Shown here piece after piece: positions 2,919 through 61,990 of a DNA stretch of 64,000 nucleotides. The notes under the pieces are model-generated. The model saw nothing but the letters and a program-made list of their open reading frames with translations, had not been told where the DNA came from and searched no databases. Position 1 is the first letter of the stretch, and each line of letters starts with the position of its first letter. The position numbers and the translations under genes were made by a program. The DNA comes from Octopus vulgaris (taxonomy: Eukaryota): the NCBI GenBank assembly GCA_951406725.2, contig OX597839.1, positions 36,332,001 to 36,396,000 on the forward strand, read 5' to 3'.

Positions 2919-3801
2919 ATATATTGTCAGCGTTTTATTTCCATTTTCCTAGTCTTGCATGGGTTGTGCTGGATTTCTCTAACACAGCATTTCATAACAT
3001 GTGGCTGCGAGCAAAGCAGCAGTGCACACCTACCTTATTCTTTACTGAACTTGTTGCTAAGTTACCTCACCTTGTTCACAGCATCCCAGTACATTGCTTG
3101 CATAGCTCTCACAATTTATTCATCTACACTTAGGCTTTCTAAGTGACCAACAGACTCCACATTGTGGAACTTTGTCAAAAGCTTTCTTCTGAGCTAAACT
3201 GCTCCTGCAGTGGCCTCTGTAAAAAGATTGTATTCATAATACTTTGGCCTGGTTCAAATGTAAACTGCATCTCATTTAAGCTAATTTTTGTTATAATTAA
3301 CTGTTCTGTTAGTTTTTTTTGTTGTTTTTATAACTTGGTCATCCAGTTTGATACTCTTGTAGTTTCTGCTTTTGAGATGACCGTCTCCTTTAAGCCTTGT
3401 AGTTCATGATGATGATGATGATAATGACAACACTGCTTATACAAGTTATTGAGAATAACACCTCTCTGTACTGTTTATTTCACTGTGCAGCTGACTTTTG
3501 TGTCCCCTATATTTTGACAAATGTTTCCTGTGTCTCAGCTGAAAGATTTGTTCACTTTTCCCTTCCTTTCATCTTAATAAACCTTCCCAACCCTGTTAGC
3601 CGTCAGCTGTTGGAATAGCATTTCTGTTGTCGTTCCTTCTTCTCTTTGTCAGTTATAATGTGAGTGTGTGGCTGTCAAGCTGGGCTCACGTTTTAGCCAA
3701 GGTTTTGTTTTGAAACTTGGAACATGCTGCAGAACATTAAGGAACCTCTTACTTGCAGGTTCTCTTTAATCTCTCTGTCTCTTTCCACACTCACACACAC
3801 A

Positions 3802-4450: not shown

Positions 4451-5215
4451 TTGTCTTCGCAAGGAAATCATTCCCAGCATAATACTCCTGTTTCCGCTCA
4501 CCAGAGTCCATCTGTGGAGATGAGAACAGTGAGTTCAAGTGGAGCTGGTGGCGTTCATCGGCTCACTTACATTCTTGACAATAAGGCAAGCCAGCAGGCA
4601 TCAATGGAGGCTCGGCTCGCTCAGCTTTCTCAGTCATCTCATCCGTCTGTCTACCCAACCGACAGACGCGTAGAGAAGATAGCAACTACTCCAAGTGCTT
4701 TCTCGCCTCCGGCAGTCCATGAAGTCCAGCAGCCGTTCTATACAACAGACAACCTGCATGTCTCGCGCAGCATGCCCTTTCCACAGACCCATCTCCCTAT
4801 TCAAATGGGACGTCTACCTGTCGACCACGGGCTTGCTGTCTATGCTAACGCCCAACATGGCTTCATAACTGTACCAGAGGGCACCATCGTTCAAACTCAG
4901 GCACATCACCCCCATTATCAACACACGGGATACCTGAGTCAACAGCATGGCATGGGCCTAGAGCGGGTCGCTCTAGAATCTCGACCTCCGTCTAGGCCAC
5001 CATCTCGACCTGACAAACGGCCACCATCAAACCCCAACCAAGCCACTGGAGGTTCAACTGCAGTTGTAAAGGCCCACGTCCAGCAACCACCACCTGGATC
5101 ACCTGGTTTAGTCCATTCGGATGGTGTGAAGTTATTACACAGCAACTTGTCAGTAACACCACAGTCTATCGTTAATCCAAATTCCTTTGCCTATGATACA
5201 ATTGCTATGTTACAG
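4451..5215 (+). CDS. spen: spen coding exon (LSSQGNH...YDTIAMLQ), ends at the start of the SPOC domain
   Basis: tttccAG acceptor at 4449-4450, CAG|GTAAGT donor at 5216, phase 0/0. Terminal DTIAMLQ aligns with DMVQLLK, which precedes KYPIVWQG in human SPEN (recalled sequence). Confidence 0.9.
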
Positions 5216-5779
5216 GTAAGTCTTTCTTTCTTTCAAGTTTTTTTTAAAAAACAAACAAGAATTTGCTCTCTGAAGGGTTGCCTCTTGCCGTTATATTTTT
5301 GATTGCTTCCATGGCTTGAATAGACCCCCCCCTCTTTATCATTGTTTCATGTCCAATTTCTATGCTTGCATATGTATGGCAGAATTTGTTGGGGATTTTT
5401 TTTTTTACAGCTGGATGCCCTTCCTGTCCCCAACCTTCACCTGTTTTCAAGCCAAGTAATAGTTCACCAAGGTTGGACATGCTTTTCACAGAAGAATGGA
5501 AACAACACCATTTGTATGATGGTGCTTCTTGTTTACAACCATAATGTCAAAGCAAAGGTGTATACACACACCTTTAAGTTTCCATTTCCCAGATCTACTC
5601 ACCTTTGGTATGACAAATGTTATAAAAGTCATTTGCCCATGGTGCTGTACAGTGGGACTGAACCCAAGACCTTACGATTGGGAAGCAAGCTTCTTAACTA
5701 CACGGTTGTTAAATTTAATGTTCAATTCTTTGCCATCACTGTGGTATAAAATTAACTTTAAATCTTTCTTTTTTTTCAG

Positions 5780-5809
5780 ATGATTCATGAAGTTTCGTTT
5801 ACACAGAAG
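5780..5809 (+). CDS. spen: Candidate 30-nt microexon of spen (MIHEVSFTQK), probably alternative
   Basis: Polypyrimidine tract + cAG (5763-5779), 30 nt without a stop, AAG|GTAAGT donor at 5810. Phase 0/0 matches both neighbours. Confidence 0.65.
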
Positions 5810-7092
5810 GTAAGTGAAATATTAATTAGTTGATTAATAATCATTTAGTTACCTGTCACTATAGCACACTACCTTGTCATAGTTACACAATCTAGTCATG
5901 GTTATGTTTTTTGCACACTACCAAGTGATGGTCATCGGTCTCTGACCACAATCTCGTGATGGTTGCCTGTCTCTGACGTGACCTGGTGATTAACTGTCTC
6001 CAATTAACACACAAAATGGTCGATTCCTTTTAGAAAAGCATTATTAAAGATGTTATTAGCTTAGTTGAAGATTTGGTGTATTTGTGTAGTGCCAGGTCAG
6101 TTCTTATTATGCAGACTCAATGTGTTTACAAAAGATCCTTGACTCTGTGATGTTTCATCCTTTTAGCATTAAAACTGGCCTAAATATTCTAGAACCTGTT
6201 TTATGATCAAACTGGCCGGATCTGGCCTCTCACAGCTACCCTACAATGCCATTCTAAATATAAACAATGACATTTTTTGAAATCTTGCAGTATGAAATAA
6301 TTCATGATTAATACAAAATCAATGTGAATTAATAAGTATTAAATTTGCCAAATAAATCCGAGTGCTAAAGGGTTAATATTTGAAGTTTCTGCTTTATTTA
6401 AGGATCTGTTGTTGCAGTTGTTGTTTAAACTCAGGTCAATCCTGATTTAAGTGCACCAACATTTGATCAGGCATTGCGTCCAAACTCAGCTTGGACTATA
6501 TGATCGAATGTGTCCTTCCTTCCAATTTTTAAAAATGGAAGAATGTGATTCTGTAGAGACTGGCTGCTGTTTATGTCAAGTCAAGTGACCATACTCTACT
6601 CTCTCTTTTACTTGTTTCTGTCATTTGACTGCGGCCATGCTGGAGCACCACCTTTAGTCAAGCAAGTCTACCCCAGGACTTACTTGGTCTCTTTTGCCGA
6701 ACTGCTAAGTTACGGGGACGTAAATACCTCAGCATCGGTTTTCAAGCGATGTTGGGGGGGACAAACACAGACACACAAACATATACACACACATACATAT
6801 ATACATACGATGGGCTTCCTTCAGTTTCCGTCTACCAAATCCACTCACAAGGCCTTGGTTGGCCAGAGGCTATAGTAGAAGATACTTGCCCAAGGTGCCA
6901 TGCAGTGGGACTGAACCTGGAACCATGTGGTTGGTAAGCAAGCTACTTACCACACAGCCATTCCTGCGCCTATGTTGTAAAGAGACTTTTTCTACATGTA
7001 ATATACTGGGGTTCCCCAACTTAAGTTGTACCGTGTATGGTTTGTCTGATATTTGTAATCTAACCTAAAACTGTTTTTCTCTTTCTTTACAG

Positions 7093-7296
7093 AAATATGA
7101 AATAATGTGGCAAGGTCTTCTGGCATTGAAAAATGATAATGTAGTTGTGCAGATGCACTTAATGTCAGGAAATAGGCAGTTAATAGCACCATCTATGCCA
7201 CAGCTAGCTTCAGACTGCACCATGCAACCACTACGAATAAGCCAACGGATGCGCCTCGAGCCAATCCAGGTTGAAGGAGTGGCAAAACGGATGCAG
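7093..7296 (+). CDS. spen: spen SPOC domain exon 1 (KYEIMWQGLLALKND...LRISQRMRLEPIQVEGVAKRMQ)
   Basis: Matches SPOC motifs WQGLLALKND and LRIxQRMRLE of SPEN/SHARP. ttacAG acceptor, CAG|GTAAGT donor at 7297. Confidence 0.96.
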
Positions 7297-8543: not shown

Positions 8544-8702
8544 TTGACGGAAGAGTATTGTATGCTGTTGGCCCTGCCTAATGGCCAAGACCATTTTGAA
8601 ATAATGCACCAAACTAGAGCTCTGAACAATGGTTTTATAAGTTACCTGAGCAGTAAGCAAGCTGCTGGAATCGTTAATGTGTCCAACCCAGAATCTCAGC
8701 AG
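8544..8702 (+). CDS. spen: spen SPOC domain exon 2 (LTEEYCMLLALP...FISYLSSKQAAGIVNVSNPESQQ)
   Basis: SPOC motif FIxYLxxKQAAGIxNV. tttacAG acceptor, CAG|GTATAC donor at 8703, phase 0/0. Confidence 0.96.
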
Positions 8703-9730: not shown

Positions 9731-9791
<61 letters not shown>

Positions 9792-10290
9792 CACCATTAA
9801 AACTAAAGATACACCCATACACCACTAAAGATACATGCCTGTATATAGCCACTACACACACCATGTTTCTCTCCTTGTTTTTTCTGTGTCCCTTTCTGTA
9901 GAAGAGCGTAGGCTCGAAACGTAAAAGACTTTTTCTATTCCTGAGCGTTATACTAATACATCTGTTTGTTTTGTACACCACCTGTCTTCGCCTTTTATTT
10001 TTTTCGTAAACTCTCCCTATATATATATATATATATATATATACATACACATACACACACCATTAAAACTAAAGATACACCCATACACCACTAAAGATAC
10101 ATGCCTGTATATAGCCACTACACACATTTTTTTTCTCTCCTTGTTTTTTCTGTGTCCCTTTCTGTAGAAGAACATAGGCTCGAAATGTAAAAGACTTTTT
10201 CTATTCCTGAGCGTTATACTAATACATCTGTTTGTTTTGTACACCACCTGTCTTCGTCTTTTGGTTTTTTTTCGTAAACTTTCCCTAGTA
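9060..10290 (+). repeat. Tandem array of four ~270-bp Penelope-tail/retrozyme-like units with hammerhead-like motifs, in the last spen intron
   Basis: Units start (ccactacacac) at 9060, 9566, 9849 and 10115. Each contains ctttCTGTAGAAGAGCGTAGGCTCGAAACGT(T/A)aaag or a mutated version and an internal (TA)n. Unit 1 carries a SINE insertion. Confidence 0.85.
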
Positions 10291-10396: not shown

Positions 10397-10525
10397 CCTG
10401 CTTATGTCGTCCATATTTTCCCACCATGCGAGTTTTCTCGCCTGAAACTACGAGAGGCCGGATTTGAATTGATGAACCAAGTGTCTGACTTTGCTCATCT
10501 TGTGATTGTGATTACCACGGTCTAG
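10397..10525 (+). CDS. spen: spen terminal coding exon (PAYVVHIFPPCEFS...HLVIVITTV*)
   Basis: Matches the SPEN C-terminus PAYVLQIFPPCEFS...HLMIVIASV. tttcAG acceptor at 10395-10396, TAG at 10523-10525. Confidence 0.96.
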   Translation, partial: PAYVVHIFPPCEFSRLKLREAGFELMNQVSDFAHLVIVITTV

Positions 10526-25391: not shown

Positions 25392-27251
25392 CTACCATTC
25401 AGCATCTCCGACTGCCTTAGAGAACAACATATCTCGACCAAACAGGTTCAAAATGCCGTCTTTTAACTGAAACTTCCATTTGTTTTTAATGCGAGAAATT
25501 TTCACAAACTGGCAGACGATAACGTTTTCTGATTCGAACATGGCGCAGATGTCTGCATCGCTGTCGTCGTCCGCGGTATTTAACGGGTCGGATTCAATAC
25601 CAATGTCTACAATTGCTTCGTCAATTTCATCGCTTATGTTGCTACTTCCAGATTCGCTGCTGCTATCTTCATCTTTGCTTGTGTTGTTGTTGTCAGAGGA
25701 AGAAGTTGAACCAGTGTTCTCACCATCACATTGACGAGACATATTCAAATATTTTCTTTTGACCCTGACTGAAGACACGTTTGTGCCATTGCCCAAATTA
25801 TGTCCAGATAGGTCCTCTATTTCTGCGTCAGTAGTTCCGTCCATTTGTAAAATTTCTTCTATAGTTTTCATATCTTCCTCACTTAACTGACATATTTTTC
25901 CGACTCCACTTCCTTTACAAGAATTATCCGAAGACGATGCCACAGACATGATGGAGGTCTGGCCCAGTGAGTCATTTAACAAAGTAGGTTTATTATTATT
26001 ATTATTGTTATTATTGGCGGTGGTGGTATCAGCTGGAGGAAATTTAGGGTGTTCATCTGGAATGTAACTTTGACAATTTTGCGAAAGTGGGCCAGATATA
26101 TCCTCGAGAAAATCTTCTAGAGTGGACGGAGTGTTGTCTACCGACGTTCTACTCTCGTCGTAAAAAGGAGGCAATGGTTTAACTACAGGGTAACCTGTAA
26201 AGTTATCTTGGTGGGAAAGTGAAGAGACGGGAAGACGATTGGGCTGATTCGAACTGCAAAAGTAATTCTGCTCCAGATTTCCTCCGTGACAAGATGGAGC
26301 AAAAGAGGAGATTCGAGAAGTTAAAAATTCACTGTTCGCTTTACTGGTTTCTGCTTGTGTGGTTATTAAACTCTTCTGTGCCTGCTGAACCGAGTTACTA
26401 TCGTTTTTCTCAGAAATGCCACAGCGGGTCCCGTTGTTTGGTCCAGCATCTCCAAGTAGTTCACTTCCATTTGTTGACAACTGACCAACAGGGTCATTTG
26501 CATTGCTGTTGTCATTATTATTCTGTTCCTTGGCAGAATTAACGTTTGTATGTACAGCAGCCGTGCTAGAAATAACTCGGTCGGTAGCATTAGACAGAGA
26601 GGAACTAGTCGTAGTCGGTGCAGTACTTTCACTAATTACAGCAACGTTTAATGGTAAAGGGGTTTTGGTAGCCGGGCCGTGTAATTTGGAAGGCGATCTT
26701 CCAGCTTGGTAAATGGAAGGCAAATTGAAATTTGAAGGAGGACACCGAGAAGTCGGTTTGTTGTTATCGTTAACAGAATGGGACTCACCTGAATTTTCAG
26801 ATGTCCAAGCAGTAGGAACTGGCTGCAGTAGATGTTGTTCTGGCGGGAGAATAGCCAAAAAATGTCCATTACGGTTACGTTGAAGAGAGATTCCGGCATT
26901 ATTTAAATCCCTGATTTGCTGGTTGTAAAGTCCATACGGAAGGGCTATGGTAGCAGTCGTACAAGAACTTCGTGGTCCGCGCATGCGAGGCCCTGCCAAA
27001 TGAATAGAAGGAACAAATAGTTCAGAATTGTTGTTGCTACACGCAGGAGAAATAATTCCATAACCATCAACATTTGTTCGGTTTACTTTAGAAAATTCAA
27101 ACACTTTAGAATCGTGGATTTTCTTTAACCACGCTTCTTTCATGTCCGTAAGAACAGTTTCATCGATACCTTCTTCTATAAATAGTTCGCGGCTGGACTG
27201 AACAACATCTTCTACGACACTTTTATAGAATTTAGCAACAGGGTCGCTCAT
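25392..27251 (-). CDS. GTF2A1-like: Intronless TFIIA large subunit (alpha/beta precursor)-like protein, 619 aa; probable retrogene paralog
   Basis: N-term VAKFYKSVVEDVVQSSRELFIEEGIDETVLTDMKEAWLKKI is the TFIIA alpha helical domain. C-term ENVIVCQFVKISRIKNKWKFQLKDGILNLFGRDMLFSKAVGDAEW is the TFIIA beta-barrel. Also has a taspase-type site QMDGTTD and an acidic region. Single uninterrupted 1860-nt ORF. Confidence 0.95.
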   Translation of the reverse strand: MSDPVAKFYKSVVEDVVQSSRELFIEEGIDETVLTDMKEAWLKKIHDSKVFEFSKVNRTNVDGYGIISPACSNNNSELFVPSIHLAGPRMRGPRSSCTTATIALPYGLYNQQIRDLNNAGISLQRNRNGHFLAILPPEQHLLQPVPTAWTSENSGESHSVNDNNKPTSRCPPSNFNLPSIYQAGRSPSKLHGPATKTPLPLNVAVISESTAPTTTSSSLSNATDRVISSTAAVHTNVNSAKEQNNNDNSNANDPVGQLSTNGSELLGDAGPNNGTRCGISEKNDSNSVQQAQKSLITTQAETSKANSEFLTSRISSFAPSCHGGNLEQNYFCSSNQPNRLPVSSLSHQDNFTGYPVVKPLPPFYDESRTSVDNTPSTLEDFLEDISGPLSQNCQSYIPDEHPKFPPADTTTANNNNNNNNKPTLLNDSLGQTSIMSVASSSDNSCKGSGVGKICQLSEEDMKTIEEILQMDGTTDAEIEDLSGHNLGNGTNVSSVRVKRKYLNMSRQCDGENTGSTSSSDNNNTSKDEDSSSESGSSNISDEIDEAIVDIGIESDPLNTADDDSDADICAMFESENVIVCQFVKISRIKNKWKFQLKDGILNLFGRDMLFSKAVGDAEW

Positions 27252-27298
27252 ACTCCGAGGATTCGAAGAAACTCTTTCACCTGTGTCCTGTGTCCCTG

Positions 27299-27367
27299 TT
27301 TAAATAGTTGTGGTTACGAAGCAAACTAATTTGTATATGTAAAATAGCTGTAGGAAAAGGTGACGTA
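27299..27367 (-). promoter_or_regulatory. Possible core promoter of the TFIIA-like gene (TATA-like TATTTAAA and CRE-like TGACGT)
   Basis: TATTTAAA on - at 27299-27306, about 48 nt upstream of the ATG. TGACGTA at 27361-27367. Short motifs only. Confidence 0.3.
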
Positions 27368-37892: not shown

Positions 37893-39673
<1,781 letters not shown>

Positions 39674-40459
39674 ACAGGAATTAATTACAAAAAAATAAAA
39701 ATGAAATAAAAACGTCAGCAATATTATTTTTAGTCAATCGTAAAATTAATTAGTTTTTCAATTTACCCAATTTTTAAAATCTTGTAAAATATTTCATTGA
39801 GAAATTATTATTATTATTATTATCAAAATCTCCTCCCCTCCCCTTCCTCATAGTATTCCAACCTATTTCTCCTCAGTTCTCTCTCCGAAGACACATGTTA
39901 CTGTTTGAGCACAAATTTAATTCATTCATCACATAAATGATCTTTCTCACCTTCTTAGATTCTCCACGATGTAATATGTAAGATATTATGTCATAATAGT
40001 ATCGTGAAAAACTTTTTTGTCTCTCATTCTCGCCTCACCTTAAAATCAGGTTCAAAACAGATAACATTTTACATCAATAAGAGATTTTTTAAAAATCAGA
40101 AAACTTCTTTCTTATATAATTAATTTTGTTTAAAGAGTTCAGCAATGTAAGTACGAGAAAATATATTAAAATTAAATCTAATTAGAATATCATAAGAATT
40201 TATAAACTTTCGAGAGAACGTAAAATAATTCTTTTTGTGGAGCTGGATCTCGAAGCACACGAATGCTAATCCAAAAGGGTTTTTCAACTCAATATTTACA
40301 TGTTATTTTCAGCATTAATATGCTTCATTTGAGACCTAATTTAGAAAGTTTTAACACGTAAAATATCTTAATTTTGAAGCCCTGTTCCGTTCAGTCTTTC
40401 TGGCCTTGCAGGAAATATAATCCAAATGAGTTTTTTCCCCCCTCAATCCAATTTTTACG

Positions 40460-60733: not shown

Positions 60734-61990
60734 TCAGTGCATCAACAGCGAAAGAAGATACGTGGCAGGATATTTAGTAAACAAGCAAACAAGACCTGCT
60801 ACAGTATGCTGCTAATGGAGAAGGATTTACCAAAAATGGACTTGAGAGTGATCAGGAATTCTGATCACGAATAGCCAACGAGAGAGAAGGAACTTTATTC
60901 TGCATGGAATTACATGATCAGGTCCACCATGAAACTAACAACTTAAAAGACCAGGAAGCATCATGAAGGTGGCTCAGCAAGGGTGACGTAAAAAAAGAAT
61001 CCAGAAAGCCTAATCGTTGCTGCCTAGGACCAGGCATTACATACCAACTCAGTGAAAAGGGATATATATATACCACACAAGTGCAGCGAACCTCTGCAGA
61101 ATGTGTGGGAAGAGGGTCGAAAGTGTGACTCACATTGTTAGTGTTTGTGAAAGTCTTGTGCAGAAAGAGTACAAGTGCAGACACGACAAGATAGCCCAAA
61201 ACTTGGCTACTGTGCTGGAAGTATTGATATGAGGTAACAGGTGCTTGGTACCAACACACACCGGAAAAGGTTATGGACGAAAAGGGGAAGGCAAAAATCC
61301 TCTGGGACTTTGACTTCCAGACAGACAAGGTGTTAGAGCACCGAAGGCCATTAACCTTTAGGAGGGACAAACAAGAGCGCCTAATAATTGATGTGGCAGT
61401 GCCAGGAGATCAACTTATCATCGTGAAAGAAAGAGAAAAGATTGAGAAATATGGAGACCTGAGAATTGAGATCGCCAAGATGTGGCAGCTACGAAAGTCA
61501 GACATAAAGGTTATCCCTGTTGTCATTGGAGCATTGGGTTCAATACCACACAAGTTGAAGAGACATTTGGAAACTTTCAAAATACCCTACAACAGGGGTG
61601 GGCGAACTTTTTTGATCGCGGGCCACACAGTGCGTCTTTGGAACCTTGGCGGGCCTCATTTATAAAAATCAAGTGAAAATATTTTTAAAGGCGGTTATAG
61701 ACCTATAAACACACGATTGAAAGGAAATTTTGTGAAATATTCCTCTTGGCGGGCCGCATGAAAACCTATGGCGGGCCGCATGCGGCCTGCGGGCCGTAGT
61801 TTGCCCACCCATGCCCTACAATGTAGGCGTATTGCAAAAATTGGCATTATTTGGAACTGCACACACATTGCGTAAAGTAGTCTGTCTGTCTGAGGTCGTT
61901 GTTGTGACTTGATAGACAGAACAAACTCCCCCGCTAGACGATATCTTCAGTCAATAACATCACATATTTGATACTGTGTGATGTCTTAAA
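60734..61990 (+). mobile_element. Decayed 3' part of a restriction-like-endonuclease (R4/Dong-type) non-LTR retrotransposon
   Basis: CCHC remnant (CRMCG..ESVTHIVSVC..EYKCRHDKIA) and RLE motifs KILWDFDFQTD, IIDVAVP, EKIEKY, VIPVVIGALG. Frameshifted and split by a hAT MITE. Confidence 0.85.
61593..61813. mobile_element. hAT MITE inserted into the RLE-type LINE
   Basis: Exact 8-bp TSD CCCTACAA (61585-61592, 61814-61821). TIR CAGGGGTGGGCGAAC / GTTTGCCCACCCATG. Confidence 0.92.

What the first reader, a model, noticed from the sequence alone, without database searches (positions are those of the whole stretch)
5780..5809. Hidden 30-nt microexon inserting MIHEVSFTQK at the SPOC domain N-terminus
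Seen: strong polypyrimidine/cAG acceptor and AAG|GTAAGT donor flanking 30 in-frame nt, phase 0/0, invisible to the ORF track. Established: human SPEN reads DMVQLLK-KYPIVWQG contiguously, matching the skipped form DTIAMLQ-KYEIMWQG. SPOC binds phosphorylated SMRT/NCoR. Inference: a lineage-specific alternative exon may tune corepressor binding. It also begins with ATG, so it could start a SPOC-only product.
Basis: partly seen in the sequence, partly recalled or inferred. Interest (0 to 1): 0.7.

Follow-up and report, generated by a model that had tools for sequence, protein, structure and literature searches.

The report
Cephalopod microexon lengthens SPEN SPOC domain
A 30-base exon is spliced into this animal's (likely an octopus) SPEN repressor gene and adds ten amino acids at a point of the SPOC domain where the other animals examined have none; it is likely included in most transcripts and likely leaves corepressor binding intact, so it looks more like a fixed lineage change than a switch.

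Summary
The exon is real. 5780-5809 lies between a T-rich acceptor and a consensus donor, phase 0/0. In 8 of 8 runs laid (6 studies, 3 organism labels) one contig joins 5215>5780 and 5809>7093 at GT..AG. No skip junction was seen; contigs drop rare forms and tissues are unknown, so skipping is not excluded, but inclusion is likely the main form. The gene is SPEN (RRM, giant exon, SPOC). The insert is absent from the cnidarian, arthropod, vertebrate-type, annelid, bivalve and gastropod homologs checked. It falls at the inferred helix-1/strand-1 junction, beside a Pro that is kept in 329 of 333 homologs but lost here. The phosphoserine-binding residues K3516, R3548, R3552, R3566 and K3606 are kept and lie in later exons; by a review, helix 1 borders a groove next to the acidic face, not the basic patch. 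There is no UGC near the acceptor. So 'alternative exon tuning corepressor binding' and 'SPOC-only start' are unsupported. Verdict: a real lineage-restricted microexon, likely constitutive-type, of modest interest.

The parts
5780..5809 (+). 30-nt microexon, phase 0/0, 10 codons, included in SPEN mRNA
5752..5779 (+). 3' splice signals: branch-point-like TTAAC at -28, T-rich tract directly on the CAG; 88 nt free of AG; no TGC between branch point and AG (nearest at -49)
   Evidence: branch point is predicted
5810..5815 (+). consensus 5' splice site GTAAGT (after AAG)
4451..5215 (+). upstream SPEN exon; low-complexity region ending in the inferred SPOC helix 1
   Evidence: start from splice signals and contig offset
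7093..7296 (+). SPOC exon (Pfam PF07744 positions 6-66); holds equivalents of K3516, R3548, R3552, M3553, R3566; Glu in place of the conserved Pro at its third codon
8544..8702 (+). next SPOC exon; holds the K3606 equivalent
   Evidence: (loose end at 7296 reads into it)
10397..10525 (+). last coding exon, ends in TAG

Best explanation
This is a real 30-nt exon, spliced into SPEN mRNA, that adds ten residues at the inferred end of SPOC helix 1 and is likely included by default in most transcripts, likely leaving the phosphoserine-binding patch intact. SHOWN: exon, frame, both junctions; absence of the insert in the outgroup proteins examined; retention of the patch residues; loss of the neighbouring Pro. 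INFERRED: the exon was born inside an old phase-0 intron (an acceptor stands at the same codon in L014 and L019, and read-through ORFs P0031 and P0071 show an intron there) after cephalopods split from bivalves and gastropods. Strong core signals (consensus donor, T tract abutting the AG, branch-like TTAAC at -28) would let it be recognised without a tissue-specific enhancer. The ten residues would lengthen helix 1 and its link to strand 1 on the surface, and the Pro-to-Glu change would relax that junction. SMRT/NCoR and Pol II CTD binding would be retained; any new effect would be at the helix 1/4/6 groove.
For: Inclusion joints in 8 of 8 runs from 6 studies, each inside one unbroken contig that also carries both flanking exons; only two joints in the uncut table. 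Splice signals as strong as those of the flanking exons (pyrimidine fraction 0.82 against 0.65-0.88); constitutive microexons are reported to have stronger signals than neural ones (10.1101/2020.02.12.945683, passages). No UGC between branch point and AG, a feature of eMIC targets (PMC8797185). Spacing from the helix-start acidic residue to the Trp is 10-13 in 94 of 96 scorable proteins (the other 2 are intron read-throughs) and 10-15 in all 114 scorable of 120; here it is 12 without and 22 with the exon (counted by hand). Pinctada, Saccostrea, Batillaria and Ridgeia proteins are contiguous. Pro kept in 329 of 333 scored, related proteins; also lost in the closest unnamed relative P0368. Patch residues named in PMC9834408 are all present. 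Helix 1 lines a groove with helices 4 and 6, whose side is opposite the basic patch (PMC10660550 section 5.2).
Against: Contigs show presence, not absence, give no inclusion rate and carry no tissue label; only 8 of 18 holder runs were laid, and hid 125 joints. The skipped form fits a homolog profile better (226.4 against 221.3 bits), so it remains a plausible functional isoform. About a quarter of SRRM3/4 microexons lack the UGC (79% and 74% have it; 10.1101/2024.09.17.613571), and the 88-nt AG-free zone is eMIC-like. The SMRT peptide binds near strands 1 and 3 (PMC4981400), and the insert abuts the start of strand 1, so an indirect effect is possible. Pro loss is not diagnostic: Batillaria has Gln there with no insert. 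The three organism labels are at least 99% alike here, so conservation across cephalopods is untested. No usable structure model: the one fold was of an insect SPOC at pLDDT 44.
Confidence: 0.62

Rival explanations
1. A regulated cassette microexon: included in the tissues that dominate these runs, skipped in some tissue, cell type or stage, switching SPOC between an ancestral and a lengthened form and so changing partner choice.
For: The skipped form restores the ancestral spacing and scores 5 bits higher on the homolog profile. Frame-preserving, phase 0/0, long AG-free zone. Octopus splicing is highest in neural tissue (PMC9699675, passages). Run tissues are unknown.
Against: No skip joint in 4 of 4 runs with a full joint table, none among the shown joints of 4 more; contigs run unbroken through both junctions. 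No UGC near the acceptor and no weak acceptor.
Confidence: 0.25
2. A nearly neutral, recent exon gain confined to this species complex, tolerated because it lengthens a surface link, with no effect on function.
For: Seen only in organisms at least 99% alike over these exons. Unique sequence, one match in the genome, so no sign of a wider family. The insert is far in sequence from the patch residues.
Against: This junction has kept its length from cnidarians to vertebrates, which suggests constraint. The neighbouring Pro is also lost in a more distant unnamed relative (P0368, 93% identical cluster), hinting that the junction changed earlier. This rival concerns function and age and can coexist with default inclusion.
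Confidence: 0.1
3. The ATG starts a SPOC-only protein from an internal promoter in the intron.
For: The exon begins with ATG in frame, and the downstream exons encode almost the whole domain.
Against: The ATG sits directly behind a used acceptor, and all 8 contigs reach it by splicing from the upstream exon. A product starting here would lack the inferred helix 1. An exon beginning with ATG needs no special explanation.
Confidence: 0.03

Closest known systems
SPEN/SHARP/MINT (split ends) SPOC domain, PF07744; PDB 2RT5, 7Z1K, 1OW1
   Same: RRM, very long middle exon, C-terminal SPOC; E about 5e-17 to the human chains; phosphoserine patch residues kept
   Different: Ten extra residues between inferred helix 1 and strand 1, and Glu for the conserved Pro; no such insert in any homolog scored
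Constitutively included microexons (30 nt or less; MicroExonator 'included' clusters, 10.1101/2020.02.12.945683)
   Same: Length 30, frame-preserving, strong splice signals, only inclusion seen
   Different: Inclusion rate by tissue not measured; lineage-restricted and inside a folded domain
eMIC / Srrm3/4 / Srrm234-dependent neural microexons (PMC8797185; 10.1101/2024.09.17.613571)
   Same: Short, multiple of three, long AG-free zone, branch-like site
   Different: No UGC near the acceptor, tract abuts the AG, no UC-alternating tract, no sign of skipping

Membership tests
SPEN (large Spen family protein) | C-terminal SPOC domain | tested here: met
   PF07744 E 2.3e-11 and 2.6e-4 on two exons; profile match to the last residue before the stop
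SPEN (large Spen family protein) | N-terminal RRMs | tested here: met
   RRM_1 E 2.2e-9 in one upstream exon, L003; other RRM exons not scanned
SPEN (large Spen family protein) | Very large protein (unlike RBM15/Nito) | tested here: met
   Open frames of 2405 and 1977 codons in adjoining loci L002 and L001
SPEN (large Spen family protein) | Basic patch K3516, R3548, R3552, R3566, K3606 | tested here: met
   Residues from PMC9834408 mapped through alignments; K3606 by motif position
SPEN (large Spen family protein) | Binds phosphorylated SMRT/NCoR | not testable with these tools
   The spliced domain could not be folded or docked
Microexon (30 nt or less) | Length and canonical splice sites | tested here: met
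   30 nt, AG/GT; definition
Microexon (30 nt or less) | Spliced into mRNA | tested here: met
   Both joints in 8 of 8 runs
Alternative cassette exon | Skipped isoform exists | tested here: inconclusive
   Not seen in 8 runs; contigs drop rare forms; 125 joints hidden
eMIC/Srrm-dependent neural microexon | UGC between branch point and AG | tested here: not met
   Nearest TGC at -49, upstream of TTAAC at -28; about a quarter of true targets also lack it
eMIC/Srrm-dependent neural microexon | Weak acceptor with tract set back from the AG | tested here: not met
   T tract abuts the CAG; pyrimidine fraction 0.82; no MaxEnt score computed
eMIC/Srrm-dependent neural microexon | Long AG exclusion zone | tested here: met
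   88 nt, but other exons of the gene have 35-97 nt
eMIC/Srrm-dependent neural microexon | Neural-specific inclusion | not testable with these tools
   Runs carry no tissue labels and are contigs

The most novel reading that the evidence does not exclude
Cephalopods rebuilt a junction of the SPOC domain that is fixed in length in other animals: the microexon makes a new partner-binding surface at the helix 1/4/6 groove, and regulated skipping in some tissue or stage switches SPEN between the ancestral and the new form.
Probability: 0.15. Interest if true: 0.6.

Novelty: new variant of a known kind. Interest (0 to 1): 0.3.

Why it matters
SPOC is the effector end of SPEN in Notch, nuclear-receptor and Xist silencing, and its helix-1/strand-1 junction kept its length in every homolog scored here. 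A natural ten-residue insert shows that the junction can be opened, and gives a ready variant for testing the groove next to helix 1, which a review lists only as a potential interaction site. In practice, gene models that miss the exon give the wrong protein for this lineage. If the exon is constitutive and leaves binding unchanged, it is a curiosity of domain evolution.

Tried and rejected
No RNA holder listed as such on record: no evidence either way. No contig covers 5216-5776 at 99% likeness apart from repeat pieces, and none ends loosely at 5780 among those shown: contigs cannot show starts, so this was not used against an internal promoter. A bacterial promoter scan is irrelevant to an animal gene. 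No spliced cephalopod SPEN protein was retrieved: one search covered 120-2000 aa (best identity 63%), one search gave 5 middle-exon proteins without SPOC, one search listed 120 of 862, nearly all arthropod, one search gave one close cluster (P0263/P0368) of genomic ORFs that cannot show the exon, one search gave 13 loci of at most 57% identity. The full protein, about 6000 aa by my estimate, probably lies above the reachable length. ESM Atlas: no usable hit for the exon; only SPOC clusters for P0010. AlphaFold of an insect SPOC failed (pLDDT 44); only its helix 15-21 / strand 24-32 call was noted, as weak support. Hydrophobic moments across the insert (0.2-0.3) neither prove nor exclude helix extension. 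One search used wrong exon ends and was redone. Repeat-derived origin rejected: one genomic match. Literature: searches listed no paper on this exon; Ariyoshi and Schwabe 2003 was not held. The annotation in data S1 of PMC9699675 was cut in storage and its PDF supplement was not searched; either may hold the exon. Earlier scan notes: none.

Full report
Observation. The exon is as described. The upstream exon ends at 5215 with CAG|GTAAGT, a T-rich tract and CAG end at 5779, thirty stop-free bases follow, and AAG|GTAAGT closes them at 5809; the next exon is 7093-7296. By pattern alone this is suggestive, not conclusive: 34 of 1000 Markov simulations of the intron gave a similar in-frame pattern, and the window holds 16 looser matches.

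Splicing. One search listed 22 runs, 18 holding the upstream exon; none is on record as RNA, and all are assembled contigs. I laid 8 of the 18. In X1, X4, X6, X15 and X2, X8, X12, X17, covering studies P1-P6 and organism labels A, B, C, one contig per run goes from the upstream exon through the 30 bases into the SPOC exon, skipping 564 and 1283 nt with GT..AG ends. In one search (99% likeness) these were the only two joints and none was hidden, 125 joints were hidden. No 5215>7093 joint was seen. Contigs drop rare variants, so skipping is not excluded. That inclusion is the main form is an inference: from my own knowledge, not tested here, a well-covered skip path would break the contig or replace the longer path. 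The three organisms differ by at most two bases over these exons, so they show no deep conservation.

The gene. The window is G000:C26:36332001-36396000 of a 2.8-Gb genome. The exons at 7093 and 8544 match SPOC, an upstream exon matches RRM_1, and a middle exon holds over 4300 open codons. The SPOC exon had one match in the genome. The 3' exons are 4451-5215, 5780-5809, 7093-7296, 8544-8702 and 10397-10525, ending in TAG. This is SPEN.

Comparison. Among the 120 proteins listed, 96 could be scored; the distance from the helix-start acidic residue to the conserved Trp was 10-13 in 94, and the other two are intron read-throughs; 24 started too late or lacked the motif. Among the 120 of 862 listed, 114 were scorable, all at 10-15. 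Here the distance is 12 without the exon and 22 with it. The representatives search (150 of 331 listed; 105 new proteins read by eye) brought named lophotrochozoans: Pinctada, Saccostrea, Batillaria and Ridgeia, all contiguous at this point. These are single annotated models and could miss a small exon. The intron itself is old: an acceptor precedes the same codon in L014 and L019 of 12 loci printed, while most others run through without an intron. The third residue of the SPOC exon is Pro in 329 of 333 scored proteins (of 399 held, many related); here it is Glu, and Gln in the closest unnamed relative P0368, but also Gln in Batillaria, which lacks the insert. No spliced cephalopod protein or DNA was reachable, so the age of the exon within cephalopods is open.

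Structure. The human SPOC construct starts at 3496 and the SPOC exon aligns from chain residue 9, so the insert comes just after the first eight residues. That these form helix 1 is recalled and only weakly backed by a poor model (pLDDT 44). The residues that anchor phospho-SMRT/NCoR and pSer5-CTD, K3516, R3548, R3552, K3606, with R3566 and M3553 (PMC9834408, passages), are all present and encoded downstream. PMC10660550 (section 5.2 read whole) puts helix 1 at a groove with helices 4 and 6, and those helices on the acidic side opposite the basic patch. Against this, PMC4981400 (passages) places the SMRT peptide near strands 1 and 3, and the insert abuts the start of strand 1, twelve residues before K3516. 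The skipped form fits a homolog profile slightly better (226.4 against 221.3 bits). The spliced domain could not be folded with the tools, so the shape of the insert is untested.

Regulation. eMIC-dependent exons have weak acceptors, long AG-free zones and UGC near the acceptor (PMC8797185, passages); 74-79% of human SRRM3/4 targets have that UGC (10.1101/2024.09.17.613571, passages). This exon has the AG-free zone (88 nt) but a tract abutting the AG and no TGC after the branch-like TTAAC at -28. Constitutive microexons with strong signals are a known class (10.1101/2020.02.12.945683, passages), and this one fits it best.

Mechanism and odds. Most likely (0.62) the exon arose in an old phase-0 intron in the cephalopod line, is included by default through strong core signals, and lengthens the helix-1/strand-1 link on the surface while the phosphoserine patch stays intact. 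Rivals: a regulated cassette skipped in unsampled tissues (0.25), a recent neutral gain (0.10, partly compatible with the first), and a SPOC-only start (0.03).

Novelty. Searches listed no paper on this exon (listings only; also read in passages: PMC10111866; PMC9699675; 10.64898/2026.09.05.749416, with no mention of spen). RNA-based annotations, including data S1 of PMC9699675, which I could not read, may already include it. It is a new variant of known things, a microexon in a SPEN gene. Interest 0.3: real and a little surprising for SPOC specialists, but without evidence of regulation or changed function.

Noticed in passing
window 5793-5809: The 3' half of the microexon reads like an acceptor (T-rich, then CAG before the last codon), so a 3-nt exon at 5807-5809 is conceivable and may hint at its origin; no such joint was seen.
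   Followed up: partly
window 7233 and 7215: A>G at 7233 in 7 of 8 runs (not X6), third codon position and synonymous; C>T at 7215 only in organism C. Contigs cannot tell allele from A-to-I editing.
   Followed up: no
G000:C26, about 36314905-36327900 (L002, L001): SPEN middle exon of over 4300 codons; the whole protein is about 6000 aa by my estimate.
   Followed up: partly
window 25395-27299 (-): Uninterrupted 635-codon frame matching TFIIA alpha/beta over nearly the whole profile (PF03153, E 4.5e-47); looks like an intronless gene or retrogene.
   Followed up: no
window 3600-3659: Another acceptor/donor pattern (60 nt or 7 nt) in the previous intron; contig offsets fit a direct 1483>4451 splice, starting at the CAG repeat at 1192, so probably unused.
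   Followed up: partly
window 9752-10287: Two copies of a 266-nt unit, with similar pieces further upstream, in the last SPEN intron.
   Followed up: no
window 38001-40000: GC content of 7%, probably an AT microsatellite block.
   Followed up: no
window 61228-61662 (+): 145-codon frame that looks from recall like a fragment of a non-LTR retrotransposon endonuclease region; no Pfam hit.
   Followed up: partly
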